A stretch of 64,000 nucleotides of DNA, taken from assembly GCA_964016885.1 (NCBI GenBank), contig OZ024752.1, forward strand, positions 44,206,001-44,270,000, read 5' to 3'. Under the pieces are notes generated by a model. The model saw only the letters and a program-made list of their open reading frames with translations. It made no database searches and was not told the DNA's origin. Of the stretch, positions 1,599 to 35,636 are shown piece after piece (within the stretch, counting starts at the first letter, position 1; each line of letters opens with the position of its first letter). This stretch comes from Eledone cirrhosa. Lineage: Eukaryota. The position numbers and the translations under genes are program-made.

Positions 1599-4500
1599 TT
1601 AAAAGAAATTCGAAATTGTCACTGCAAATGTTTTGATTTCCATTGGTAATAAGGTAACATCGAGACCTTGCTTTTTGATATAAGGACCTGAAATTGGATT
1701 TAAAACTGTTAGAGTTTGAAGCAAAACTTGAAAAAAGGGATTTAATTTGTTGACGGTTTTAACAAGATATTTTGAAACTAATATTAACTAATATCAACAA
1801 TTTTCAAATAATTTTAGTTTTTCAGGGCTTAAAATGGAGCAGCTATTGTTTGTTTGTATGGCAGAAAGTAAACTAATGCTTGATTAGCCATGAGGAAGAG
1901 ACTTCCGTTGGTTTTTGACGATGAGTACTCTAGTTATTTGATCAATAGAAGAGCTTGTATAAGTGGCTGAGCATTCTACAAACAGGTGTACTGTTTTGTA
2001 ATGCTTACGAAGTGTCAGCATGACCCAGTGTGTGACAAGGTTGGCTCTTTAAATTACAGGTACAGTCCATCTGAAGGGCTTCCAAACAGTTTCTATCTCC
2101 CCCAGTTTCACAAGGCATGGGTTGACCCAAGGCTGTGGTAAATAACACCCAGGGTGTCATGCAGTAGGATTGAACTTGAAACCTAATGATTGTCAACAAA
2201 ACATAACCTGTCATGTTTCAAATCTTTCCCAAGATTCATTTAAATGGTATTAATTTATGCCAAGAAATATTAAACTTACTCTTTGCATCAGGTTTCCATT
2301 TTAGACGATGTAAATCTGATAACTTGAGATTAGCACCAAGAACTAATTCTTCAACAGCAGTGATATTAAAGTGGCTAAATAAATTCTGGAAAAAAGAAAA
2401 AAAGAAGTGACATATAAAAATGAGATTTTCATTGAAGGGAATAACCCTTCCTAGTTGAGAAATCAAGACATTTATTACACATAAATCCAAAGACATACTA
2501 TGACATGATCTTTAATGCCAATAAAGTACACTATGTTTGCTATTTCTACCTCAAAGAAAATATTTGTACATTGTTTCAGTAATTTTAAAGTTTGTCTTAT
2601 AATATAATATATATATAATTTTTAGTTTTGTTCAACATGAAAAGGTATAATATCAATTCATGTTTTCTATATATAGTCTAGGAGTGAGGGCTGGCCATTC
2701 TGGGGTGATAACTGCAACAAAGTATGAAAATTACCTTTAGTGATATTGTGACAGGTTCTGAAAATATGCTTTCCTTTTTCTCAAAGATATGTTCTAAACG
2801 GAGTAATAAGGTGTTCTTTCTCAATTGCTGTAGTGTTAATATATTTAGGTTACCAGGAAGACTTGTCTTCATAGCTGCCCACTGAAATGGTAAAATTATA
2901 ATTATTATTTGTATTGGTGGGGTTGATTGGTAGAGGGTCAGATGCCATACTTAGCAGCAGTTACAGTCTGAGTTGAAATCCTGCTGAGGTTAACTTTGCC
3001 CTTCATCCTTACAGGGGTCGATAAAATAAAGTACCAGTAATGTACTGGGTAATTGCTGGCCTTGTGCCAAAAGTAGAAACAATTATAACATGCTAGACCG
3101 ATACAAATAATGTCTTGATTGGTGCTAGTGTCACAATAAAATAGACACTAGGTTGTATGTGTGAGCTGTGGACTGCTGCCGGCCTAACTCAGCACTTGGT
3201 AGATACAAGCACCTTGTTTAATGCAAAAGATGTTTAAAAGAGTTTTAGGGGGCAGCCATTTCTAATAAAACATCCAGCAGTCAGTCATGGCGTTCTCTGA
3301 CCTTAATTGGTGGGTTCTCACGTGTGTAAGTGGCTTACACTATTTTTATTGTGTATTTAATTTATATCAAATTTCTAACTTGTCCATATATGTGCCAAAT
3401 TACATAATATATACTAACATGGTGATTCCATTTGGACCATTGTTGGCAGATTAGAATCGTAGAAACTGATGCATCAGTCCAGGTATCTCAAATACCCACA
3501 CAAAGTTGTCTTCTTCACTGATTAACATATAAGTGTACACATTAATTAGGTTCGAATTTTAATAATACGAACTTGATTAAATTATAGTTAAGAGTTCATA
3601 TCTTGTACATAAATGGATTACTTTTAAAATAAACTTACATTTGTGTTGAAATTTTTCTTCCATTCATCTGGTGTGATTTTCAGTTCAGCAAAAGCCATTG
3701 TTGGGTGTAAAAACGACTCAATGGCCTGCTGACGGTGGAAAATTGTTGACTTTTCTTTTGTGTCAACATAGAGAAGATGTTTCCCTGAAATTATATAATT
3801 CATAAATAAATTCAGTGTAGATTTGTCAGAAACCTACTAATATATTCATTTAAAAAAGGCCAAAGGTGATTCTCAAACCCCCCAAAATGTATTTATGTAG
3901 TAAATTTATTGGTACATACCTCGAATTATGAGGCCATGTCCATCAACACCTGTTTCATTTAAAGGTTCACCAACACCTCTACCATCATCAAATAAAAGAC
4001 GACGGTGTAACTACAAAAAATAAAAATAAATTTATTACCCTCCAATATGAACATTTGTTTTTGACATGAAACTAGCAAGACATTCTTCCAAGTACTAAAC
4101 TGTGCTATAACTTCATCACATTAAAAATTAAAGTCTTTACTTTAGTCTAATTCTAGATATTTTTCACAATGATCCATCCACTAGTAAAGCTATTATAAAT
4201 ATTTGAATAAACAAACATGGTTTTAAATATTTTCTTACTAAATCCTTATAAGATGTTAAATAGACATACCATAATTTCAACGTTTCCTTCCTTTAAACTG
4301 GTACCTCCTTGAGAACGGTCGGTCAAAACAGTAAACTGAACATCCTTGTTAACATCCTAGAAAATACAAATATTTAAAGTGAGTTGATTGTTTTATAACA
4401 AAACTAATTCAACAAATGATTAAAATCTCACCATTTTCTATACAAAATGGCAGTGTCACCCTGTACCAGGCTCCAAAACAATGGTTCCGCTGCAAGACGG

Positions 4501-7500
4501 TGGCCTGTCCCGTCTCATAAAGGTGCCATCCAGGTGGTTGGTGTTAGGAAGAGGGGTATCCAGGTGTAAAATACCCAGCTAATTTTACAGTCCTCGGAAC
4601 AAGGTATGGCGTGGCCAATCCTGAGCACACCTGTTTCCCAATGTGGACGACCTGTCTAACCCATGCAAGTATGGATAAATGGACGCTAAAGGATGATGAT
4701 TATTATAAACATATCTATATGGTGCCATGACAGGTAATTTGTAACAATTACTACTGCAAAGTGGTAGTGTTGATACCACAACAGAAAGCCCCCAGTTTGC
4801 ACTGTCAGGTGATAGAGAAAATACACCTGGTACACTCTGAAGTGGTTAGCATTAGGAAGGGCATCCAGCAGCAGATACCATGCCAGAATGGAATATAAGA
4901 AGAAGACAGTCATTAAACCTGTTTAGACTTAAGATGTGACAACACATCTAACATAGGCAAACATGGAAAATAGACACACACATATAAAGGAAGTCACATA
5001 TATATAAAGAGGAAGTTAAACACATATATAAAGTAAGTCGCATACACACATTTATAAAGAGGGAGTCATACACACATATATAAAGGAAATCACACATACA
5101 TACATATAAAGGAAGTCACACATACATAAAGAGGAAGTTAAACATATATAAAGAGGAAGTCATACATATATAAAGAGGAAGTTAAACATATAAAAAGACA
5201 AAAAGCAAGCCAAAAAAAAATAAGATTAACATTTTTCCACAAGAGAAAAAAATCAAAGGAGAATAATTTACCTTGATAAATATTTTGGCGTTAACAGGAA
5301 AATAATTGCCAGCAACAGGTTCAGAATTTTTGAAAGTCCAGGTAGGTCTGTAATTAAGTCTGTAATACAGGTAAGTCTATAATTAAGGCTGTAATACAAA
5401 TTAAACACTAAAATTTATAAAGTAATTCTCTTTAAATATTGTTTTCTATAACTTTACATGTAGGAAATAATACAAACCAAATAGTGAAAATATGTAGCAA
5501 TATTTGACCACATAAATATTGCTACATGTAGGCACTGTTATGTGGTCAAATATTGCTACATGTAGGCACTGTTGACTACATAGTGGCTATATGTAGCAAT
5601 ATAAAATATTTGATCACATAATAAAAATAAGACAGGCAGGCATTGAAAGGGTGTACTTACTTTCTCTCCATTATTTGTCTTCCATTTGCATCAGTAAAGA
5701 ATAAATTGTTAGTTTTAAGGTCAGATTGGTAAGAAACAATGACTTCTTTTCCCTGATTCTCTCTGGAATGTTAGAATTAGATGTTAATAGATTACAACAA
5801 ATATAACAAACTTATTTAATAAAGGTTTCCAATTCAGGCAAACCCCACTGTATTATATAGCCATAATATTCTCAATACCAGTAGGACTTAATAACCCTTT
5901 TTTCGACCATATCTGAGAAAGAAGAGTGCTGTCATTGCTTACATAGTACTTCCAAATCTTTTCCCTCCAAAATACCGTTTATTTAAATGAATTTACCATA
6001 GACCCAAGGTTTTTGAAAGGTCTGTCTACTGAATAGGTTCACAGTTTTAGTGCCCAGTCCACACTGTAAAGTGGTCATGTTGGTGCCATGAAAAAAAAGC
6101 ACCCAGTCCATACTGTAAAGTGGTCATGTTGGTGCCATGAAAAAAAAGCACCCAGTCCACACTGTAAAGTGGTCATGTTGGTGCCATGTAAAAGCACCTA
6201 GTCCACACTGTAAATGTGGTTGGCGTAAGGAAGGGCATCCAGCCATAGAAACCAAGCCAGAATCAGTTCTATATGAGCAAGACACAGTCATCTGATTTGG
6301 CTTGTCTCAAAGGGACAACTCATCTAACCCATGCTAGCATGGAAAATGGACCTTAAACAATGATGATGACGATGATGAAGTATTGTCAATGTAGCCATTA
6401 ACAAATCATCGAAAGGTTATGAAATAAATATAAAAGAAAAAAATGACTCATAATCCAAACAATTTTCTAAATAAATTCCTTACGCGGGAATTGATCCGAC
6501 AGTCCATTCAACTTCAGCAAAGTTATCAGATCTATATATCCGTAAAACTTGGGTAACCCAAGGGCAGAATACTTGATGAACCTCTTGAACAAGTGGTCCC
6601 TGTGAAAAGGAAATTCTGGAACAATTAAATAAAACCAACAAATTTAACCCTATCAACCAACCCAAAACTGCCTCTCATTCTATGAAACAAAACCATTTTA
6701 AAGGATTTATATTTAAATTAAAACTTTCCTACCTAATTTTATATAAGAACAGTTTGTTACCTTACAAATACCATCTCAATAAAATAATTTTAGTAAATCT
6801 TTCCCAAATTCTTCGTTAATTAATTAAAATAGTAAATATTTCACTAGAAACATGGTAGTGAAAGTGTTAATTTTATTTAACTTCTCTGAAATACTTATCT
6901 TTTCAGAGTGAAACTAATCAAGTTGAAACTGACTAGAATCTATTTTAAGAAACTTAGTGAAACAATTACAAATATTTCAAGTCTATTTTAGTTCAAAGTT
7001 CAGTCATTTAAGACATTTTCTTTCCAACATTAATATTTTAAAAATATTTTCTAGATAATACTGATTTGTCTATTTCCAACATATATTTGTTCAAGAACAG
7101 AGAGAGAGGGAGAGGGAGAGAGAGAGAGAATGTTTGTGAATAAGCATTCCTCTGAAGAATCTAGTGTAATTCTACAACTTACCTTTATTATATGACTCTT
7201 TGTTGGCATTAAATAATTGACACTATTTGGTGTGTTATTTAAAGGTCTGAAAATATAATTGTTGGAAGCTTGTTCACCAGGGTTGGAGTTGTTACCATCA
7301 TGGCCTATGTAATAGAAATAGTTTTGTGCCAAAGATACAGATATTTTACTTTTAAGGTTTGAAATTGATTCCATACGACCAGTTTTACCGTTAAAGGAGA
7401 GAGAGATTTTCTGGAAAAGAAAATTTGATAAATTTAATAAGAACAGAACAACAATAACACAAACAATAGCTAATGTCTACTTTTCACGCTGTATGGATTA

Positions 7501-10500
7501 GAATGGCTGTTATCAGACTAGACAGCTTATATATAGTACAGAGTGTACTGGGTGCTTCAGTCTTACCACCTTACAGAGTGTACTGGGTGCCATCAGTTCA
7601 GTCTTACCACCTTACAGAGTGTTCTGGGTGCTTTTTTCATGACAACATGACCCTCCCCAAATATAAAAATATAATTATATACTTACATCGTTTTTTATAA
7701 CAAAATCTTCCCCCAATTCTACAGGAACTAATTGCGATAAACTTCGCTGAATTATATTTTCATCTGAAAATGTTAAAAAAAATTTTTTTTTAAATTAAAG
7801 AAAAAAAACATTCAATATTCAATTTACTTTTTGTATCTAATTCCTTTATTTTTCTATTTTTTATAACATTTTTATAACATGTGAGATGCTTGTTACCAAT
7901 CAGAGAGATGAGCAACTCTGCTTGAGTACTGATCCAATCTGTGACTAACTCTTTTAGCAGGAAAAATAGATGTTAAATGACGACAACAACAACAACTAAA
8001 GTCAGAATCAAACTTACCGTGAGTCTTTTGCACAAAATAAGTTGCAAATCCTAAAGACTGTATCTTTACTTGGAAAACCAAAATATTCTCTGCTTTGGAA
8101 TCTTTCCGTTCTGGAATTCTTTTAGTAGAAGTACTGATACCTATAAGCTAAAAATTGAATAGGAATGATATTTATATTATTTTTATTTCTCTATATTTAT
8201 AAAAGAAGTTGTAGATGGCCAAAAGGTTAAGTAGTTTCCTTTGTCATCATTAAGTCCTAAGTTTGATCCCACTGTGTAGCATGTAAGAAAACTGGCATTT
8301 ATCATAGTCTTAACCCTTTAGCATTTAAATCAGCCATATCCAGCCAGAATTCTCTCACCTCTTTCAGTTCAAACTGCCCCCAACTGGTCCCCAATACTGA
8401 TGTTAAGGTATTGTTCTCAAAATAAATAATATTAAAATCTCATAGATTATTATGCGAGATAAGTCTTTACCATGAAAATATAACAGTATATATATATATA
8501 TATAGTAATGTAAATACTAAAGGGTTAAGTCGACACTGTCTACATAATTTCAGTGAAATTAGAATTGATGCAAACATATTTAACACAGAAGCAAGATATC
8601 GATGAATAAAAATAACGTTGTGGATATAAACTTACTTGAGTTTCAACAGGGTTCAAGTCTGGTCCTAATACAGCATAACCAAAACTCTGAACAGGTAATC
8701 GCACCCAGTGGGATACAAGTTGTGCCAATGGATTGTATAGAGTCACAGTAAACTGGAAATAGAAAGAGAAAAATCATTCTAAAAAACAAGTTTTTCTACG
8801 ACTGGTTCACAATATTTTATTATGGTATATCTCAAGAATAAAATAATTACATAGTTCAATATTCTATGAAATTGAACATTTTAAAATGTCCTTAATATTG
8901 GTTTCTGATTTAGGCACAAGGCCAACAATTTTGGGGAAAGGGGAACGTTGATTAAATCGACCGCAGTGCATTACTGGTACTTTACTTTATTGACCCTGTA
9001 AGGATGAAAGGCAAAGCTAACCTTGGTAGGATTTGAAAATAGATCAGAAAGGAACGTCACTCTATGCCACAAAGCATGTTGTCTGACGCTCTACCGATTC
9101 TGCCAATTCACCGCCCTGAAGTGTCTAAAGAGTATCTCATCTTTCCTAGTGAGAGGAATTTCATTTTGGTGCAAAATATTTGAGAAATCCAATGAAAATC
9201 TATAATTCACTGGAATTATTCTTCATGTTGAGAAGATAGGGAGAGGTGGACCCCTACAACTTTTACAATACGTACCCAGTAACACAGGAACACCACTACT
9301 GCCACCCATTAAAAAAAACATAACAATGTCTTTGTTTTGTCATGTTTCCAAATAGAATAATAAATCAAGTGAAAAGTGTGAATTCTAGAATCAGATTGAT
9401 CGATTTAGAATCAAATAACATACCTTATTTAAGTCTTCAGTCACTTTACACATTGATATATTTAATAAAGAACAGTAAAACTGAGTTGGAGGAACTTTGG
9501 GAGTCTTTCGTAACAACTTCTCATAAGCTGCATTCATTAATTTCTGAAAAAAAAACAAAAAAACAAAAAAACAAAGTAATTTAAAACAGAATAAAAAATC
9601 AGAGAATCACTTCTACTGGGAAAGTCTTGCAACGAAATTCTAACTCACCTGGCAAGATTTAGTTCCATAAGATAGTCTAGATACATAATCATCAGCAACT
9701 GCTTGTTTTTCAGTACCGCTGCCAAATAAAACATTAATTATTATAACAGTCCATATATTATTAACTCTAAGTTATACTAACATTTTAATAATAATAATGA
9801 AATTATTGTGTACAGTGCTCGGGTGCACTACAATGAAATTCATGAATTTCATTAATTAATGAAATTCATTTCTTAAAAAAGGCAGTCTAGAATTTCTTGA
9901 TTTAAATATCAGTCTTCTTACACTAAGGCAGTGAATTGGCAGAGTTATTAGAACGTCAGGCAGAATGTTTTGCAGTATTCTTTCCGACTTTCTGCTCTCT
10001 GTGAGAAGAATTCGTTCCATTCTGCTTCAGTGGACAGAATCAGAAGATTTTAAAAAGTCGTGTTTTTCTACTTGTTGTTTTATGAACATCTCGACAAGTT
10101 GGGTGTTGAAACCATTAGATGTATCTTAAATATACAATTTCAGAAGTGATCCAAACTATACAAATATCATCATCACCATTTAACATTCATTTTCCTTGTT
10201 TGCACGGGTTAAACGGTTGTCACCTTATGAGACGGGTTAAACGGTTGTCACCTTATGAGACGAGTTAAACGGTTGTCACCTTATGAGACGAGTTAAACGG
10301 TTGTCACCTTATGAGACAGGTTAAACGGTTGTCACCTTATGAGACGAGTTAAACGGTTGTCACCTTATGAGACGAGTTAAACGGTTGTCACCTTATGAGA
10401 CGGGTTAAACGGTTGTCACCTTATGAGACGAGTTAAACGGTTGTCACCTTATGAGACGAGTTAAACGGTTGTCACCTTATGAGACGGGTTAAACGGTTGT

Positions 10501-16500: not shown

Positions 16501-17783
16501 ATTTCGCTGCTATTTCTAGCAGATGGCTTGAGTATTGAGTTTCGTGGTAGGTAAAGCGACATTAAGTGTTTAAAGAAATATATATCTGGACAAGCGATAA
16601 TTTTTGTTTTATAATAATAATTGTTTCTACTTTAGACACAAGGCCAGCAATTACCCAGTGCATTACTGGTACTTTATTTTGTTTTATAATAATAATAATG
16701 AAATTATTGTGTACAGTGTTCAGGTGCAATACAACTCATCAAAGGTGCCTGTATTCACACCTTCCTTTACATTTTCTTTAATGTTGTAACATTAAAAGAA
16801 TATATCCTTCTGAAAGAATCGCGAGCAATTTATAATGTTATCTAAGCATTTGTAATGTTATTTAAGTATATATTTAAAACATATTTATGTTATTCTACTG
16901 TAAATTTATTTATATGCTTTGTATAATAAAACTTTCTAAATGAGACAGAAAAAACAACAAAACATAGAATAATGTTTCTATTTACTAAAATGTTAACAGA
17001 TAAAAATATTTAATTTAATTGGCTGAAATCAAACCCGGAACCGTCACTAATTCGTTGAAATCACTAAACAGCTTATCTCCATTTTACAACATAAATACAT
17101 TGTAAAGAAAAATATTGGGTGTTTACAACAGATATGGAGTGAAGGAAATAAAAATATCAGCGGATTCATTTAGAAATAGAGTGTTAGGGTTAGGTTTAAG
17201 TTTAGGGTTCCTTTGTCGGATCATGTGTGTGTGTATATATATGTATGTGCACATGTGTGTGTGTGTATGCGCATATATGTGATTATATATATGTGATTAT
17301 ATATATATGTGTGTGTATGTGCATATACGTGTTTGTATATGCATATATATATGTGCGTGTATGTGCATATATATGTGTATATGCATATATGTGTATGTGC
17401 ATATATATGTATGTGTATGTGCATATATATGTGCGTGTATATGCATGTGTGTATGTGCATATATATGTGTGTATGTGCATATATATATGTATGTGTATCT
17501 GCATATATATGTGTGTGCATATATATGTATGTGTATCTGCATATATATGTGCGTGTGTGTGGACGTGAAAAGATGATGTAAAATAAATATAATGAATCGA
17601 TCGAGATATTTTAAATGCGAATGTTCGATATTTATGTTCAATAATACACAAAGTAAGATATTTCAGTGAGTCTGTTCTTCTTACCTTATAACCGCAAGAT
17701 TGTGTTTTAAAAGGCTGAGCTTGAATATATGTAACCAGTAGAAAGTTAAGAAAAATACACCCAACTCCAGTAGACATCGTCAT
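1599..17783 (-). CDS. MAN2B1: Lysosomal alpha-mannosidase (glycoside hydrolase family 38), 26 coding exons, 993 aa
   Basis: Exons in transcript order, all GT-AG and phase-consistent, total 2982 nt: 17685-17783, 16045-16147, 14699-14872, 14225-14418, 13257-13362, 12888-12985, 12403-12474, 11882-11998, 11519-11722, 11348-11408, 11190-11229, 9649-9718, 9424-9543, 8636-8752, 8018-8147, 7687-7763, 7183-7410, 6484-6599, 5661-5762, 5272-5359, 4270-4356, 3920-4010, 3639-3784, 2735-2881, 2280-2385, 1599-1687. Signal-peptide-like N-terminus ([22 protein letters not shown]). GH38 motifs: [11 protein letters not shown] (Zn ligands), WQIDPFGHS (nucleophile), TMGSDF (acid/base), [18 protein letters not shown]-terminal [10 protein letters not shown]. 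The start could be the ATG at 17777 instead. Confidence 0.95.
2917..3085 (+). mobile_element. tRNA-derived SINE family A (Meta-like core)
   Basis: A-box-like ttggtagag, B-box-like gagttgaaatcc, core ttgcccttcatccttacaggggtcgataaaataaagtaccag, repeated throughout the window. Confidence 0.8.
4530..4975 (+). mobile_element. Two copies of SINE family B (ggttggtgttaggaagggcatccagc core, RTE-type tail)
   Basis: Cores at about 4535 and 4843; tail ctaacccatgcaagtatggataaatggacg...gatgatgat matches the RTE 3' end at 44145-44190. Confidence 0.7.
4975..5195. repeat. Degenerate minisatellite of about 24 bp (ataaagaggaagtcacacacatat)
   Basis: Visible tandem repeat. Confidence 0.75.
6050..6378 (+). mobile_element. 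SINE family B copy with an internal tandem expansion of about 50 bp
   Basis: cagtccacactgtaaagtggtcatgttggtgccatg three times, then the core and ctaacccatgctagcatggaaaatggac...gatgatga. Confidence 0.75.
8310..8528 (+). mobile_element. piggyBac-type MITE of about 210 bp with TTAA target duplication
   Basis: ttaa|ccctttagcattta ... taaatactaaaggg|ttaa terminal inverted repeats. Confidence 0.8.
8908..9115 (-). mobile_element. SINE family A copy
   Basis: ctggtactttactttattgaccctgtaaggatgaaaggcaaag is the reverse complement of the core. Confidence 0.75.
10168..10712 (-). mobile_element. SINE family B copy containing a 28-bp minisatellite
   Basis: Tail catcatcaccatttaac at left, core gctggatgctcttcctaacaccaac at right. 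Confidence 0.7.
10204..10624. repeat. 28-bp minisatellite, 15 copies (acgRgttaaacggttgtcaccttatgag)
   Basis: Near-perfect tandem array. Confidence 0.95.
13400..13578 (+). mobile_element. SINE family A copy
   Basis: gagttcaaatcccaccgaggttaactttgcctttcgtccttacgggggtcgataaaataaagtaccag. Confidence 0.8.
13641..13846 (+). mobile_element. piggyBac-type MITE copy
   Basis: ttaa|cccttttgcattta ... taaatgataaaggg|ttaa; same internal sequence (ggccagaattctctcacctctttc). Confidence 0.8.
15070..15360 (+). mobile_element. SINE family B (two cores in tandem)
   Basis: ggttggtgttaggaagggcatccagc at about 15089 and a diverged second core at about 15213. Confidence 0.65.
17223..17560. repeat. Complex (AT/GT) microsatellite
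   Basis: Iterated gcatatatatgtgtgtatgt; explains several overlapping spurious ORFs. Confidence 0.9.
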
Positions 17784-18058
17784 GTCTTCACATAAATATT
17801 TGGAGAGAAAAAAATGCAATAGTGAAAATTTACAATCGAACGAAAAATAAACAATAAACTATCGTCGTTTAGAGAGTTTAAAAAATATCATAGGAGTGTT
17901 GAGATGTTGATAAACATTACTTAAATAAGGCCAGAACATGTGACATATCTCAACTATCAACTTAATACAAAGTTCGCCGGTTATTTTAGAGTTTGTTCCC
18001 TTGATAAACGCCTTCACCTGATTAGCAATCTCCTCGTGATGGCTTAAACTGCGTTGAC

Positions 18059-18112
<54 letters not shown>

Positions 18113-18113
18113 C

Positions 18114-18740
18114 TAGGTTAAGAATAACGTCCTCGAAAATGAAAGTGGATTTTCTGACAAGTGAATGTGTGTTTTGTTTTTTTTACAGTGAAATTTACGA
18201 TACACTCTTTGTTTATTTACAACAGGTCTCTATAGTGATATGGTGTTAATTAGTATTGCGTGTGTGATTATTTTCTCTTATATATATATGTGTGGGTGTG
18301 TATATATATGTGTGTCTGTATGTATATATATATGTGTGTTTGTATATATATATATGTGTTTGTGTCATCATCATCGTTTAGATGTTTTTGTAATATCTTG
18401 CCAAAGTTGGCACCAACTATAAACAAATTAAGGCCGGGTCATAAGAAGGACAGAGAATGATAAGGGATTTGGGTAAAAACATCTAAACGATGATGATGAC
18501 ACAAACACATATATATATACATACAGACACACATATATATACACACATATACACACCCACACATATATATATATAAGAGAAAATAATCACACACGCAATA
18601 CTAATTAACACCATATCACTATAGAGACCTGTTGTAAATAAACAAAGAGTGTATCGTAAATTTCATTGTAAAAAAAACAAAAAACACATTCACTTGTCAG
18701 AAAATCCACTTTCATTTTCGAGGACGTTATTCTTAACCTA
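18114..18740. repeat. Long inverted repeat (arms about 270 bp, spacer 85 bp)
   Basis: 18114-18389 is the near-perfect reverse complement of 18475-18740 (taggttaagaataacgtcct ... aggacgttattcttaaccta); preceded by (TA)n. Confidence 0.95.
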
Positions 18741-18754
18741 TGACTCCTTTATTT

Positions 18755-18810
18755 ACTGCTATAAATATTTCGATGATAGCCATTGAATGGCTACGATCTC
18801 ATCAGGCAGT
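18755..18810 (-). ncRNA. Minimal type I hammerhead ribozyme
   Basis: Minus strand reads actgc-CUGAUGA-gatcgtagccattcaatggctatcatc-GAAA-tattta-UA-gcagt. Stem I is 5 bp; stem II is long with the canonical G10.1-C11.1 pair; stem III is short and near-palindromic; AUA cleavage triplet. Confidence 0.85.
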
Positions 18811-18992
18811 TAGTCAGTTCTTAGATATGCCAGCTCTGTGTTTATAGTGTTGATGGTATCAGAGGTTATATTTAATTTGTTGGGATTCAACAAGCTTAAA
18901 CATTTTTATGACTGATATAAAGCACTCAACAGCTAAGTAGAGTAAATATACAATATATTAATAAATGGAAACTATATTTATAAAACCATAAT

Positions 18993-19058
18993 TATTTTAT
19001 TATATATATTTCAAGGGCGACCAAGGTAAATTATGGTGCGCTTTCATCAGATAAAATA
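18993..19058 (-). ncRNA. Minimal type I hammerhead ribozyme (left arm of inverted repeat)
   Basis: Minus strand reads tattttat-CUGAUGA-aagcgcacca...tggtcgccctt-GAAA-tatata-UA-ataaaata. Perfect 8-bp stem I and palindromic stem III. Confidence 0.85.
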
Positions 19059-19342
19059 CAGATTTGTTTTAAAAATAAATATTGACATACCCGGAAAAAA
19101 AACAATCTCAACGGTTGAAATTCGCTGGATACATCTATCTTGCCTCTCTCCCTTTTACATGTATTTTCTTCCAACAGTTTCATTTAAATAAACCGTTGTT
19201 TTTTTCAATTTTTCCGACACTCATTTGCATACTCACTCACAACTCTGTATCGCCCTCAAGTATCTCCACTATCCAGCGAATTTCAACCGTTGAGGTTGTC
19301 TTTTTCCCGGTTATGTCAATATTTATTTATAAAACAAATCTG

Positions 19343-19408
19343 TATTTTATCTGATGAAAGCGCACCATAATTTACCTTGGTCGTCCTTGAAATATATATA
19401 ATAAAATA
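19343..19408 (+). ncRNA. Minimal type I hammerhead ribozyme (right arm of inverted repeat)
   Basis: tattttat-CUGAUGA (19351-19357)-aagcgcacca...tggtcgtcctt-GAAA (19389-19392)-tatata-UA-ataaaata; predicted cleavage after 19400. Confidence 0.85.
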
Positions 19409-19704
19409 ATTATGGTTTTATAAATATAGTTTCCATTTATTAATATATTGTATATATATATATATATATATACAAATACATACATACTATATATATATAT
19501 ATGTATATATGTATATATATTACTTTTGCAACGTTTTTGGTATGAAATCGTGTGTCGAAACAAATATTGTTATACTTGGGGAGGGTCATATTGTTATAAT
19601 ATTGCCAGAAATAACAATATGACCCTCCCCAAACCCCAAGTATAACAATATATACATGTGTGTGTGTGTATGGTCCCGTAACTCCCGAGGGAGTCGTAGA
19701 GGAA

Positions 19705-19845
19705 GAATTAACCCCAATACTAGACTGGTACTTTTTTAAAATCAACCTTGAATGAATGAAAGGCAAAGTTGACCTCGTCAGGATTTGAACTCAGAGAGTA
19801 GAGAACCGAAATACTGTAAAGCAGTCTACCAACTCTGCTGTCTCG
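19705..19845 (-). mobile_element. SINE family A copy
   Basis: gaatgaaaggcaaagttgacctcgtcaggatttgaactcag. Confidence 0.65.
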
Positions 19846-20085
19846 TCTAACATTTAAACAAGAGTCATACTTAAGGTTGAACTGTTGTTGTTTGGTCTGA
19901 GGTCAACCCTAATCCAGTAGAGCTGTCATCAAACATATACCAGCTGTGACAGTCCCATATATTTCTTGTGCAGGTAATCCATGAGTGCATTATCCAATGT
20001 GTCCTTTTCTAAGTTGATAGGGTGTGATTTGAGGGAAGTTGGTTGCTATTTCTAGTAAGTGAAGTAACCTTGATGACTGTGCACA

Positions 20086-20296
20086 TATATTGAGGCAGGT
20101 AGACAGGTGCATTATATTGAGGCAGGTAGACAGGTGTATTATACTGAGAAATGTAGACAGGTGTATTATATTGAGGCAGTTAGACAGGTGTATTATATTG
20201 AGACAGGTAGATAGGTGTATTATATTGAGATAGGTAGACAGGTGTATTATATTGAGATAGGTAGACAGGTGTATTATATTGAGACAGGTGTATTAT
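20086..20296. repeat. 27-bp minisatellite (tattatattgagacaggtagacaggtg), about 7-8 copies
   Basis: Visible tandem repeat. Confidence 0.9.
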
Positions 20297-20540
20297 AATC
20301 GTTTTAATTAGAAGAGAAACGGATATTCTTAGATGTTATTTAAATATTTAAAAAATATTTATTCAGATCAAAAAGCACACCTGTTCTGACATTTAGGGGC
20401 TTCTAGGCTTACCTTAATTAATTATTGCTAGGAACCTTATAAGTACATAAAAATACATCAAAGTGAGAAGAGGAAAAAAGAAAAGGAAGAATCTAAAGTT
20501 GGATTTTATTGTATTTTATAATCTAATAGTTTATCACGAC

Positions 20541-23181: not shown

Positions 23182-26100
23182 ATGGCTCAATCAAGTAATG
23201 TCGCCGGTGATTCTTCACACGAACATTCGGAATCAAAAAAGAAAAAAAGTTCAACTGCGACAAGTTTTACCCTCGAAAGTATAATAGTTTCCTTGATCTT
23301 TTTTTGTTATATTTGTTTATAATGTAACTGTTATTCTAATAGAAATACCGACTTGTTTCTCAGTTGTCAGAAATGGTTCGGAATTTTGCACTATTTTGTT
23401 ATTCATTAGAAATAATTTCCCCCCCAAATATTTCTATATTTCGTCCGATTCTGTCATGGATTAATTATAATTTATAAGCAAAACTTCCTGAGTGTGTTTT
23501 CCTTGTTTTAATGTTTAGATACGTGTCACGTATGACAAATGGTGTTTTAATTCTCGTGCAATTTGTCTCCTTTCCTCGACGTTCGTCAGCTGCTATGGAG
23601 AGATTGTTCAACTGATTCCATCATTTTTTATCCTCATAAGCACGTGTATAGCATTGATCCAACTGTTGTGTTCAATACACTGATAGATATTCCCTATGAT
23701 CCGAATCTCTATTTAAATGTGTGTCCTATCCATATGGTGTCTGCCTCTATTTCCTAACACGTGGAAAGAGTGCAATCTTGACAGTCTTGGTCATATAACA
23801 GCAAAATATTTCATTTCATCGACTACTACATGTTTTCAACTTCAATTCCATTTAAAATTTACATTTTCGTTTTCTCTTCCCAACAAGAATACTGTACCTG
23901 GTGCCTATCTTATTTCCAATAATATTAAAAGGGATTTCAGTTTTTTTCCTACGTGTTTTAAATGATATTTGCTTTATTATTTTTTATTTTATTTTAGATT
24001 TATAATAATTCAGGCGTCTTAGTCTAGGTTTTATCTGATTGTCATAAAGGAGGGCAATTTACGACAAAATCGGTAGAGCGACATAGAAAATATCTTGTAG
24101 TTATTTAGGTTTCTTTCTATTCTAAGTTAAAATCCCGTCGGACTCGACTTCTTTGCCGATAAAATAAGTACCAATCAAGTACTGGAATCGATTAAATCGG
24201 CAACATCCTTCTCTTAAATATGTAGTGTTGTGTTATAATGGAAGAAAGTGATATAGCGACAGAAAGACAGGAATTTTAAGAGAGCTGGAATAGGTTCCGT
24301 CTAAATCCTCCACCGTATTGATGAATAAGTAGAACAAATGGCGTGCACTAGATAAGGCTGGAATGCTGAAAAACTGGAAGTGTTAGGTGTATAGAGCTCT
24401 GAGAGAAGAAGTTTGCCAATGTCCTATGGCAAGATCAAGCTAGTGAGGTGTTTCAGATCTTAAGACGATGTGTCAGTTTGAGGCAAAATGTTGGTGGTGA
24501 AACCTGGATCCAGAATAACAGTGGGACTCATAAGAAAAGGGGGACTATCCCCAGTAGACCCAACAGAGCAGGGTTTCCAAATCTTTTGGCCTACAAGCTG
24601 GCTATATTTTTTTGTTTTGTACACAAATTCTTCCTCCATTCTACTTTCAAATGATCTCGTACCACTCTTGCTGGGGATGGAACATTGGAAGATTTTGATT
24701 TAAATAGGAACTTCTTAAAATGAGTTGCTTTGTTTCATAGAACCAGAGCTAGTTTTAGGCAGCTTGGTGTTAAAAGGGTTAATATCAAAACAGTTAATTA
24801 GTAAAGTTATATATAGAACAAGTATTGATTTATTTATATGGGAGGAATCAGCAAAGGTTGGTCTTCAGCTGAGTTGGGTGAAGACCCAGCTGATACATGT
24901 CAGCAATGGCCCAGATTCTCCCCTACAACAATGAAGATCAACTGCAGATAGCAGAGCCCTGAGGACCATCAAGAACATCAGATGGTATCACCATGTATCA
25001 GCCTGCAGCCTCTTGTCACATTGCTCTTGTATGGACATGTCTTCTGCCAGATGATCCTACCATGTCCTTACTCTCATTAACACAGCTACTGCAAGCTAGA
25101 GGCCATGCACCAGATGCCTGGATGAGATTAAGGAAGATCTCCAGAAGCTTGCAGAGGGGCTGACACAGGACCGCCAGCGATGGAGGGGAGTGGTAGAGCT
25201 GGTCAGTTCTATGTGCGATGATGCTTCTAGGATTGCTGACTTAGGATGGCTCCAGTCCCATCGAGCAAGAAGAAATCAATATATATTATCATCATCATCA
25301 TCATCACCATTGTTTTGTCTGTCTTTCCATGTTGGCATGGGTTCGTTAAATTCTCTCCAGTGTAGCATCTCTGCACATGTTTCTTTCCTTTGTGAGGTTC
25401 AGTTTCTTTAGATCAGCTTTCATCAGTTCTAACCACGTCTTCTATAATGTAATTTATGTGAAAATGTTAACTGATAGTCCCATGTAGTGTTTTTCTTTTA
25501 GTCTTTCAAATTGTGTGTATCTTTTCTTCACAAATATATTAATCTTCAGTTTTACAGATAATTAAGGAAGCCCAACAGCAACATGGCCTTAGACATGGAG
25601 ATTATCAACGTTATAGGTAAAATTAACTTTCATTATTTTCAGTATCGGTAGAGGGTCGGTCACCATGCTTTGACGCATAGAGTTATGGGCCTTGCCATTC
25701 TGAGTTCAAATCCCGCCGAGGTTAACTTTGCCTTTCATCCTTACGGGGTCGATAAAATAAAGTACCAGTAATGTACTGGGTAATTGCTGGCCTTGTGCCT
25801 AAAAGTAGAAACAATTATTTTATTAAGCATATATGTATGGAAAATACTTTACTTTTTCATTGTATAACTTATAGTTTTACGTCAAATTCTCAGGTTGTTT
25901 TTGTGGTACCAGCCCTACCACCTTACACTGTAGACTGGGTGCTTTTTGTTGTGGCACCAGCATGACCACCTGCAGAGTAGACTGGGTGCTTTTTGTTGTG
26001 GCACCAGCCCTACCACCTTACAGAGTAGACTGGGTGCTTTTTGTTGTGGTACCAGCCCTACCACCTTACAGAGTAGACTGGGTGCTTTTTGTTGTGGTAC

Positions 26101-32817: not shown

Positions 32818-33085
32818 ATGTTGAAGCTGACACATTACTGCATTAACTCCTGCCTTCCACCACTCGTGAACATGTTCCCGAGATACTTGAACTTCTCTAC
32901 CTGCTTCAGTGGAACTCCAGTCACATGTAGAGTGTACTGTGCTGGCCTCCTTGAGAAGACAAGTGTCTCAGTTTTTGCAGAACTGATTTTCATTCCAGCC
33001 ATGTAGCACTCGGCATCAAACCTATCAAGTGGAAGTCGGAGATCATCTTCTGTCGAGTTAAGTAACATCATGTCTGCAGATTCCA
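32818..33085 (-). mobile_element. Degenerate RTE-like reverse transcriptase fragment
   Basis: AGMKISSAKTETLVFS...LKQVEKFKYLG, typical of the distal RT domains. Confidence 0.75.
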
Positions 33086-33292
33086 GCAGACTGGTTTGAC
33101 ACCCGTCAAATTAAAAGATATGAGAGTGAAATATAAAATACAAACAAAACGTGTGTTCTTGTATATATTTTATTGGAAATATCGCTTTAAAACCAAGAAA
33201 CAGAACTCTTACAGACTTATTTGAAAGTTATCTCCCCTACATTTTGGGACAAACCAAGTTAAACTGGAAGAGTTTATTAACCATAAGAGGGT

Positions 33293-33550: not shown

Positions 33551-35636
<2,086 letters not shown>

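What the first reader, a model, noticed from the sequence alone, without database searches (positions are those of the whole stretch)
18945..19456. Non-coding foldback element with two outward-facing hammerhead ribozymes
Seen: two inverted arms of about 185 bp around a 140-bp spacer. Each arm has a complete type I hammerhead (CUGAUGA, GAAA, AUA site, perfect 8-bp stem I, palindromic TATATA stem III), at 18993-19058 (minus) and 19343-19408 (plus). The arms differ by a few substitutions but the cores are intact, and the right arm runs into (TA)n. Known: minimal type I hammerheads with palindromic stem III mark the pseudo-LTRs of Penelope-like retroelements and retrozymes and cleave as dimers; Penelope termini can be inverted. 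Inference: this is a non-autonomous ribozyme-bearing element in which a transcript of either strand contains one hammerhead plus its antisense, so full foldback would mask the ribozyme and give long dsRNA.
Basis: partly seen in the sequence, partly recalled or inferred. Interest (0 to 1): 0.85.

Follow-up and report, generated by a model that had tools for sequence, protein, structure and literature searches.

The report
Head-to-head Penelope ends with hammerheads
The two mirror-image ribozyme motifs are real and belong to a very abundant repeat family; they are most likely the two cut-short ends that a Penelope-like jumping gene left back to back in one insertion, a pattern already described, so the finding is ordinary.

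Summary
In detail: 189-bp inverted arms (96%) around 138 bp, each with a type I hammerhead motif, far beyond chance. The unit is not a symmetric foldback element, though. Reads and contigs from four runs show three things. The arm belongs to a very high-copy family. The 'spacer' is the 5' continuation of the right-hand copy. The left copy runs about 85 bp further, to 18865, past the reported boundary. The real unit is [tail + inverted 5'-truncated copy][longer direct copy](TA)n, 18865-19450. A diverged sibling at 53575-53793 has the same layout with other breakpoints. This matches published insertion anatomy of Penelope-like elements (PLEs): pLTR hammerhead, adjacent inverted truncated copy, one-sided tail, AT-rich target. 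Opposite-strand hammerhead pairs 100-700 bp apart are already in print (PMC4209133). No RT or GIY-YIG gene could be linked, so membership is unproven and a non-autonomous PLE derivative stays open. Read-through RNA would indeed mask the ribozymes, but nothing shows transcription or function here. Verdict: a new member of a known kind, low interest.

The parts
18865..18950 (-).
   Evidence: X1 contigs span 18904-19058, 18860-18966 and 18865-18973; about 8,000-9,000 RAD reads per run lie across 18902-18970; its last 30 nt match the inverted stub of the 53.7-kb sibling.
18868..18903 (-). Predicted stem-loop at the long 3' end; the upper hairpin 18877-18893 is kept, with a different loop, in the 53.7-kb stub. 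Candidate RT-initiation or protein-binding site (inferred).
   Evidence: ViennaRNA fold of both; analogy to the AC-rich stem-loop in PMC11167929
18951..19131 (-). Inverted, 5'-truncated copy of the family's pLTR-like end
18993..19058 (-). Type I hammerhead motif, left; predicted cut 19001/19000
19132..19269 (+). 'Spacer' = 5' continuation of the direct copy; lower-copy family sequence
   Evidence: joints 19131-19269 (X1, 3 contigs, depth 131.7), 19117-19259 (X11 8 reads, X12 10 reads, 4 starts each) and 19114-19259 (X1, 1 contig)
19270..19450 (+). Direct copy of the pLTR-like end, stopping at the family's short 3' end
   Evidence: loose ends in (TA)n at 18946/18955/18963
19343..19408 (+). Type I hammerhead motif, right; predicted cut 19400/19401
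19451..19520 (.). (TA)n tract, likely insertion target
   Evidence: array 19443-19520; no target-site duplication found
53575..53762 (-). Diverged sibling direct copy (79-82% identity), hammerhead 53682-53617 with intact core, ending in (TA)n
53763..53793 (+). Inverted 31-nt stub of the tail, abutting the 5' end of the sibling copy, with (TA)n beyond
   Evidence: 26 of 31 columns identical; 0 of 5000 shuffles reach the score; only the 2 overlapping tiles at this spot among 1592 window tiles reach it
18745..18864 (-). Neighbouring piece of a different high-copy hammerhead family (motif 18810-18755); abuts the tail; not part of the unit
   Evidence: contigs span 18745-18864 and run on unlike beyond 18864

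Best explanation
This is likely one insertion of a Penelope-like retrotransposon (PLE) family, in which two 5'-truncated copies of the element's hammerhead-bearing end were laid down head to head at an AT-rich site. Shown: the arms and hammerhead motifs; the high-copy family; the spacer's continuity with the right copy; the one-sided tail; a sibling unit with the same layout and other breakpoints. Inferred mechanism: the PLE protein nicks both strands near (TA)n and primes reverse transcription twice on the same kind of RNA, once from the short 3' end (right copy, 319 nt, 19450 back to 19132) and once from the long 3' end (left copy, 267 nt, 18865 up to 19131). The two short cDNAs are then joined at their 5' ends. 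The hammerheads are passengers of the pLTR. In the parent element they would process tandem transcripts as dimers or with protein help; here they face away from each other, a read-through RNA would bury them, and the locus is probably inert.
For: (1) Family abundance: summed X1 depth 0.49-0.86 million over 19017-19085, against 6-17 for single listed contigs; RAD depth about 1,700-3,100 there, against 8-13 at 19132-19177. Depth is not a copy number. (2) Depth falls steadily 5'-ward, as 5' truncation predicts. (3) Three joints tie the spacer to the arm in right-copy orientation, in three runs. (4) 6 of the 15 joints shown are arm-to-arm strand switches at other points (18931-19092, 19058-19092, 18946-18955, 18946-18963, 18977-19009, 18981-18990); 22 more joints were not shown. 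(5) Two kinds of 3' end: (TA)n right after about 18946-18963, or continuation to 18865. (6) The sibling at 53.7 kb is (TA)n + inverted tail stub + direct copy + (TA)n. (7) Both arms share an allele at 18991 that 24,238 of 24,386 X11 reads laid there lack, so they come from one source lineage. (8) Against the sibling, the core and stems are 93-95% identical, domain II 48% and upstream 63%; all 36 cells of the hammerhead structure pair, with one A-U/G-C swap. (9) Literature: adjacent inverted 5'-truncated copy and one-sided tail (PMC8557442; PMC3846280); dual hammerheads 100-700 bp apart on opposite strands (PMC4209133); both strands cut and extended, two RT start sites defining the tail, AT-rich targets (PMC11167929).
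Against: No PLE RT or GIY-YIG ORF is linked: 95 of 187 ORFs of at least 70 aa were scanned against Pfam, and the only RT hits, at 41247-41945 and 32838-33110, are far away and look LINE-like. The 319 nt of the direct copy hold no convincing coding remnant. The tail is about 85 nt, against 30-40 bp in print. No target-site duplication was found. Helix II lacks G10.1-C11.1. The covariation rests on 3 sequences and 160 of 500 shuffles reach it. No listed read or contig spans the whole unit, and 7,703 pieces were not shown. 5 of the 6 arm differences fall in the inner 60 nt (P = 0.014, post hoc), which two copies of one RNA would not predict. The two-priming step is my inference; PMC3846280 instead favours self-priming on an antisense template.
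Confidence: 0.62

Rival explanations
1. The family is a short non-autonomous PLE derivative (pLTR only, retrozyme-like but dispersed), copied by a PLE protein in trans. The head-to-head anatomy arises by the same insertion mechanism. Together with the best explanation, a PLE-type origin is about 0.87.
For: No coding remnant in 19132-19450. Steep loss of depth 5' of 19109. The inverted copy here starts at the position equivalent to 19270, and the 53.7-kb copy appears to start near the same position in a weak alignment, which could be a fixed 5' end. Non-autonomous PLEs and PLE-derived retrozymes are in print.
Against: Family sequence continues through the whole spacer: 11 X1 contigs carry a variant at 19143. 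138 nt upstream of a pLTR can be untranslated in an autonomous element. No tandem array of the unit occurs here.
Confidence: 0.25
2. One reading: a fixed, symmetric foldback element with two outward hammerheads that moves as a unit and is regulated by masking or dsRNA formation.
For: The arms are 96% complementary with intact cores. Read-through RNA folds at about -290 to -305 kcal/mol with the ribozyme fully masked.
Against: The ends are asymmetric. The spacer belongs to the right copy. Inversion points differ among copies, and depth drops across the 19131/19132 junction (X1 14,000 to 4,306; RAD about 160-200 to 8-10). The sibling has another layout.
Confidence: 0.05
3. A single copy inserted, and the inverted arm arose later by a DNA-level fold-back duplication or repair.
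For: The arms share a rare allele. AT-rich palindromic neighbourhoods are unstable (established knowledge).
Against: The inverted copy carries about 85 nt of family tail that the direct copy lacks, so it cannot have been copied from the direct copy as it now stands. The same one-sided tail recurs at 53.7 kb.
Confidence: 0.04
4. The unit has been co-opted as a transcription attenuator or small-RNA source in the 5.4-kb gap between the divergent alpha-mannosidase and SRP68 genes.
For: It lies about 1.1 kb upstream of the mannosidase ATG (17783, minus) and 3.7 kb upstream of the SRP68 ATG (23182, plus). The cores are intact.
Against: Intact cores are expected at about 3% arm divergence. No expression data. 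The region is a pile of unrelated repeats.
Confidence: 0.02
5. Assembly artefact (chimeric palindrome).
For: No listed read or contig spans the whole unit. Inverted PLE structures are known to trouble assemblers (PMC8557442).
Against: The arms differ at six inner positions; at three of them the right arm has the family allele and the left does not. The ends are asymmetric in a family-typical way. The spacer-to-right-arm junction exists in independent data.
Confidence: 0.02

Closest known systems
Insertion units of endonuclease-positive Penelope-like elements: pLTR, adjacent inverted 5'-truncated copy, one-sided tail (PMC3846280; PMC8557442 Fig. 2)
   Same: Head-to-head inverted truncated copy directly at the 5' end of a longer copy; tail on one end only; microsatellite/AT-rich target that hides a target-site duplication; 5' truncation gradient.
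   Different: No ORF seen or linked; the tail is about 85 nt rather than 30-40 bp; no palindrome or overlap at the inverted junction.
Minimal/atypical type I hammerheads of metazoan PLEs (PMC4209133)
   Same: CUGANGA-H ... GAAAN-palindrome-NUH core; U-rich 5' and AU-rich 3' flanks; short palindromic helix III suited to dimers; mostly single motifs, some in opposite-strand pairs 100-700 bp apart (the cores here are about 300 bp apart).
   Different: Helix I is 8 bp rather than 4-5. The helix II base is A-U in this unit (G-C in the sibling and in the consensus), followed by a long, weak domain II. This sequence family was not found in print.
PAc Poseidon element of Anolis, in vitro mechanism (PMC11167929)
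   Same: Two 3' ends downstream of the hammerhead, with a stem-loop at the end region; AT-rich target.
   Different: In PAc the ORF starts within the hammerhead and runs through the tail; here every frame downstream of the core is closed.
Non-LTR retrozymes of animals (PMC7229834; bioRxiv 10.64898/2026.07.22.740005)
   Same: Non-coding, AT-rich, a few hundred bp, type I hammerhead, PLE-related, intergenic.
   Different: Retrozymes are head-to-tail tandem repeats giving two same-strand ribozymes and circular RNA; this unit is inverted, with one ribozyme per strand.
Naiad PLEs (PMC8557442)
   Same: (TA)n targets and tandem/inverted insertions.
   Different: Naiads lack canonical hammerheads; six short motifs of this family gave 0 hits in that paper's supplement.

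Membership tests
Endonuclease-positive PLE | Single ORF with telomerase-like RT and GIY-YIG endonuclease | not testable with these tools
   No genome is held. None in the window among 95 of 187 ORFs scanned. Pattern scans of genome, viral and metagenome contigs gave 0 loci. A truncated copy is not expected to carry it.
Endonuclease-positive PLE | Type I hammerhead in the terminal repeat | tested here: met
   descriptor match only, no Rfam hit, cleavage untested
Endonuclease-positive PLE | Inverted 5'-truncated copy directly adjacent at the 5' end (head to head) | tested here: met
   again at 53.7 kb
Endonuclease-positive PLE | Tail of 30-40 bp at one end only | tested here: inconclusive
   A one-sided extension is present, but it is about 85 nt
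Endonuclease-positive PLE | Variable 5' truncation, dispersed copies | tested here: met
   Depth gradient and varied joints; sibling copy
Endonuclease-positive PLE | AT-rich or microsatellite target; target-site duplication optional | tested here: met
   (TA)n at 19443-19520 and on both sides of the sibling; no duplication found
Endonuclease-positive PLE | Direct partial-tandem pLTRs around an ORF | not testable with these tools
   Needs full-length copies
Non-LTR retrozyme | Head-to-tail tandem repeats with a hammerhead in each unit | tested here: not met
   No tandem repeat of the unit in 17900-20400; the copies are inverted or solo. Arrays elsewhere in the genome could not be examined.
Non-LTR retrozyme | Expression as linear and circular RNA | not testable with these tools
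   No RNA run was available to lay
MITE / foldback DNA transposon | Symmetric terminal inverted repeats with fixed ends and a target-site duplication | tested here: not met
   Ends differ by about 85 nt, inversion points vary, no duplication
Rfam hammerhead families | Score at or above the gathering threshold | tested here: not met

The most novel reading that the evidence does not exclude
The family is an ORF-less, dispersed PLE parasite of very high copy number with a fixed 5' start near 19270 and two defined 3' ends about 85 nt apart, the long one closed by a conserved stem-loop. Its head-to-head pairs would always put the long end on the inverted copy and the short end on the direct copy. 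If so, the genome records, in thousands of copies, that PLE inversions are built by two primings at two alternative RT start sites.
Probability: 0.15. Interest if true: 0.45.

Novelty: new member of a known kind. Interest (0 to 1): 0.15.

Why it matters
As a locus it matters little: it looks like retrotransposon debris of a described type. The family has modest use. It is abundant, Rfam misses its ribozyme, and the recurring rule seen at 2 of 2 units in this window (long end on the inverted copy, short end on the direct copy) could be counted genome-wide to test how Penelope-like elements build inverted insertions, a step that is still unresolved in the papers read.

Tried and rejected
Rfam: 0 matches at gathering score in the whole window; at E <= 10 in 17900-19900 there were 50 matches, none a hammerhead, mostly microsatellite or hairpin hits to miRNA models. 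Folding the isolated motifs gave no stability beyond shuffles (z -0.2 to -0.8). The window's genome is not held, so no genome-wide BLAST was possible. Pattern scans gave 0 loci in metagenome contigs, genome contigs and viral contigs. No RNA holder listed. Pfam on 95 of 187 ORFs, the 92 low-complexity ones left out: no PLE domain. No earlier finding by sequence or place. Not found in print: an 18-nt family motif in full texts (0 papers) and six DNA motifs in the PMC8557442 supplement; supplement file 1 of PMC4209133 was not searchable and the PMC13282606 supplement was only listed, so an existing repeat-library name is not excluded. A search for Penelope-like + twin priming + inversion listed 3 papers, none about PLEs by title. 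A same-strand heterodimer of the left hammerhead with the neighbour at 18810-18755 (cut sites 241 nt apart) was considered and rejected: 7 of 8 helix III pairs, but +0.4 kcal/mol against -3.2 for the homodimer, and P(stem I) = 0.0 in the joint fold. Covariation with 3 sequences is not significant.

Full report
1. Observation. The inverted repeat is real: arms 18943-19131 and 19270-19458, 96% complementary, 138 nt apart. A type I hammerhead descriptor finds 19343-19408 (+) and 19058-18993 (-), each with an 8-bp stem I; 200 shuffled windows give 0.0 such hits on average. Rfam finds no hammerhead. As monomers, the active fold lies about 3 kcal/mol above the minimum-energy fold, while two helix III segments pair 8 of 8, as in dimer-type hammerheads. 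With the bulged-nucleotide register of the published consensus, helix II opens with A-U and G-U here and with G-C and G-C in the sibling copy.

2. Setting. The window is AT-rich animal-type DNA full of (TA)n tracts. Its repeats recall octopus genomes; this is recalled and was not tested. The unit lies between two divergent genes: alpha-mannosidase (GH38 exons on the minus strand, ATG at 17783) and SRP68 (plus strand, ATG at 23182, splice frame checked). It is therefore intergenic, unless there is an unseen untranslated exon.

3. What the family data show. I laid two contig sets (X1, X4) and two raw RAD runs (X11, X12) on 18580-19269, which holds the left flank, left arm and spacer, at 80% likeness. 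Depth over the GC-containing hammerhead part (19017-19085) is 0.49-0.86 million in X1 (single listed contigs 6-17) and about 1,700-3,100 reads per RAD run. It falls to 14,000 at 19109-19131 and 4,306 at 19132-19154 in X1, and to about 160-200 and then 8-10 in the RAD runs. Summed depth is not a copy number, and the AT-rich peak at 18948-19016 may attract unrelated reads, but the arm is plainly a very abundant repeat, also present in organism B.

Three strand-switch joints join the end of the spacer to the arm: 19131-19269 (X1, 3 contigs, depth 131.7), 19114-19259 (X1) and 19117-19259 (X11 8 reads, X12 10 reads, 4 starts each). The spacer is thus the upstream part of the right-hand copy. Six other strand switches among the 15 joints shown lie at different arm positions; 22 joints were not shown, and their geometry is not stated, so I take them as consistent with head-to-head junctions at other loci, not as proof. 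The family has two kinds of 3' end: many reads stop at 18946-18963 and run into (TA)n, while about 8,000-9,000 reads per RAD run and X1 contigs (18904-19058, 18865-18973, 18860-18966) continue through what looked like left flank. The left copy therefore has an extra tail to about 18865, where it abuts a piece of another hammerhead family.

4. An independent sibling. At 53575-53762 (-) lies a copy 79-82% identical, with an intact core, ending in (TA)n. Identity is 93-95% in the core and stems, 86% downstream, 63% upstream and 48% in domain II. Directly 5' of it, 53763-53793 is an inverted 31-nt stub of the tail's end, followed by (TA)n: 26 of 31 columns are identical, 0 of 5000 shuffles reach the score, and no other place in the window does. 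Both tail ends fold into the same small hairpin with different loops. So 2 of 2 units of this family in the window have the layout [inverted copy with long end][direct copy with short end], with different lengths.

5. Mechanism. Shown: everything in sections 1, 3 and 4. From the literature: PLE insertions are often 5'-truncated, with an inverted 5'-truncated copy adjacent at the 5' end and a 30-40 bp tail at one end (PMC8557442, passages; PMC3846280, passages and Discussion). PLE hammerheads occur mostly singly, sometimes as opposite-strand pairs 100-700 bp apart, show no cleavage as monomers and little as dimers (PMC4209133, parts 1-2 of 4 and passages of supplement file 2). A purified PLE protein cuts and extends both strands at AT-rich DNA and starts reverse transcription at two sites that delimit the tail, in an AC-rich stem-loop; its hammerhead needs the protein and is dispensable for insertion in vitro (PMC11167929, parts 1-2 of 4). 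Inferred: two primings, one per nick, from the short and the long end, joined 5' to 5'. Both arms share an allele at 18991 that over 99% of X11 reads lack, which fits one event from one source lineage. Unexplained: 5 of 6 arm differences lie in the inner 60 nt (P = 0.014 post hoc). Sibling templates, gene conversion of the outer arms or chance could each give this.

6. The ribozymes here. Read-through RNA of either strand meets the antisense arm first and folds completely, so stem I probability is 0.0. RNA starting in the spacer escapes the antisense arm, but stem I probability is still only 0.02-0.05.

7. Works like versus member of. It works like a truncated PLE insertion unit and meets the structural features that could be tested. 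The defining RT-GIY-YIG ORF could not be tested, so membership is likely but unproven. It fails the tandem criterion of non-LTR retrozymes (PMC7229834, passages; bioRxiv 10.64898/2026.07.22.740005, part 1 of 5 and passages) and the symmetric-end criterion of MITEs. If the host is a cephalopod, PLE families are already catalogued there (PMC13282606, passages; PMC6962438, passages). Earlier scan notes from other genomes reach the same reading; they are unchecked and are not counted as support.

8. Verdict. Real, correctly spotted, but an incomplete view of a known insertion pattern. New member of a known kind; interest 0.15.

Noticed in passing
window 18745-18864 (-): A second, unrelated high-copy hammerhead family (motif 18810-18755, 5-bp stem I). 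In other copies the sequence goes on about 13 nt past 18864 and often then into (TA)n, so it may be a short element with a defined 5' end.
   Followed up: partly
window 18114-18740: A second foldback with TA at both ends and long terminal inverted repeats, no hammerhead; looks like a Tc1/mariner-type MITE (name recalled), possibly inserted into the 3' end of the second hammerhead family.
   Followed up: partly
window 42210-42330: A small palindrome between simple repeats with two outward CUGAUGA cores: a full hammerhead on + (core at 42270, 12-bp bulged stem I, cut after 42308) and a truncated one on - (42258). Probably another head-to-head PLE micro-insertion.
   Followed up: partly
window 41985-42150 (-): A further single type I hammerhead motif (core at 42062) in a 165-bp piece between (TA)n tracts; a different family again.
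   Followed up: no
window 40736-41945 and 42370-43030: Two opposite, 73% identical LINE-like RT remnants (RVT_1 at 41247-41945) flanking the hammerhead pieces above.
   Followed up: no
window 34729-35473 (+): Ribosomal protein S5-domain (RPS2-type) coding sequence split over two frames without an evident intron; possibly a processed pseudogene.
   Followed up: no
window 17783 (-) and 23182 (+): Alpha-mannosidase and SRP68 start codons face away from each other 5.4 kb apart, with several repeats and minisatellites between them.
   Followed up: partly
window 18854-18864 (+): An 11-nt stretch resembles a plant-type initiator-tRNA primer-binding site (recalled, not tested). It is on the strand opposite the nearby hammerhead and is probably chance.
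   Followed up: no
window 19564-19651, 5492-5602, 43955-44019, 44957-45000: Other short palindromes without hammerhead cores.
   Followed up: no
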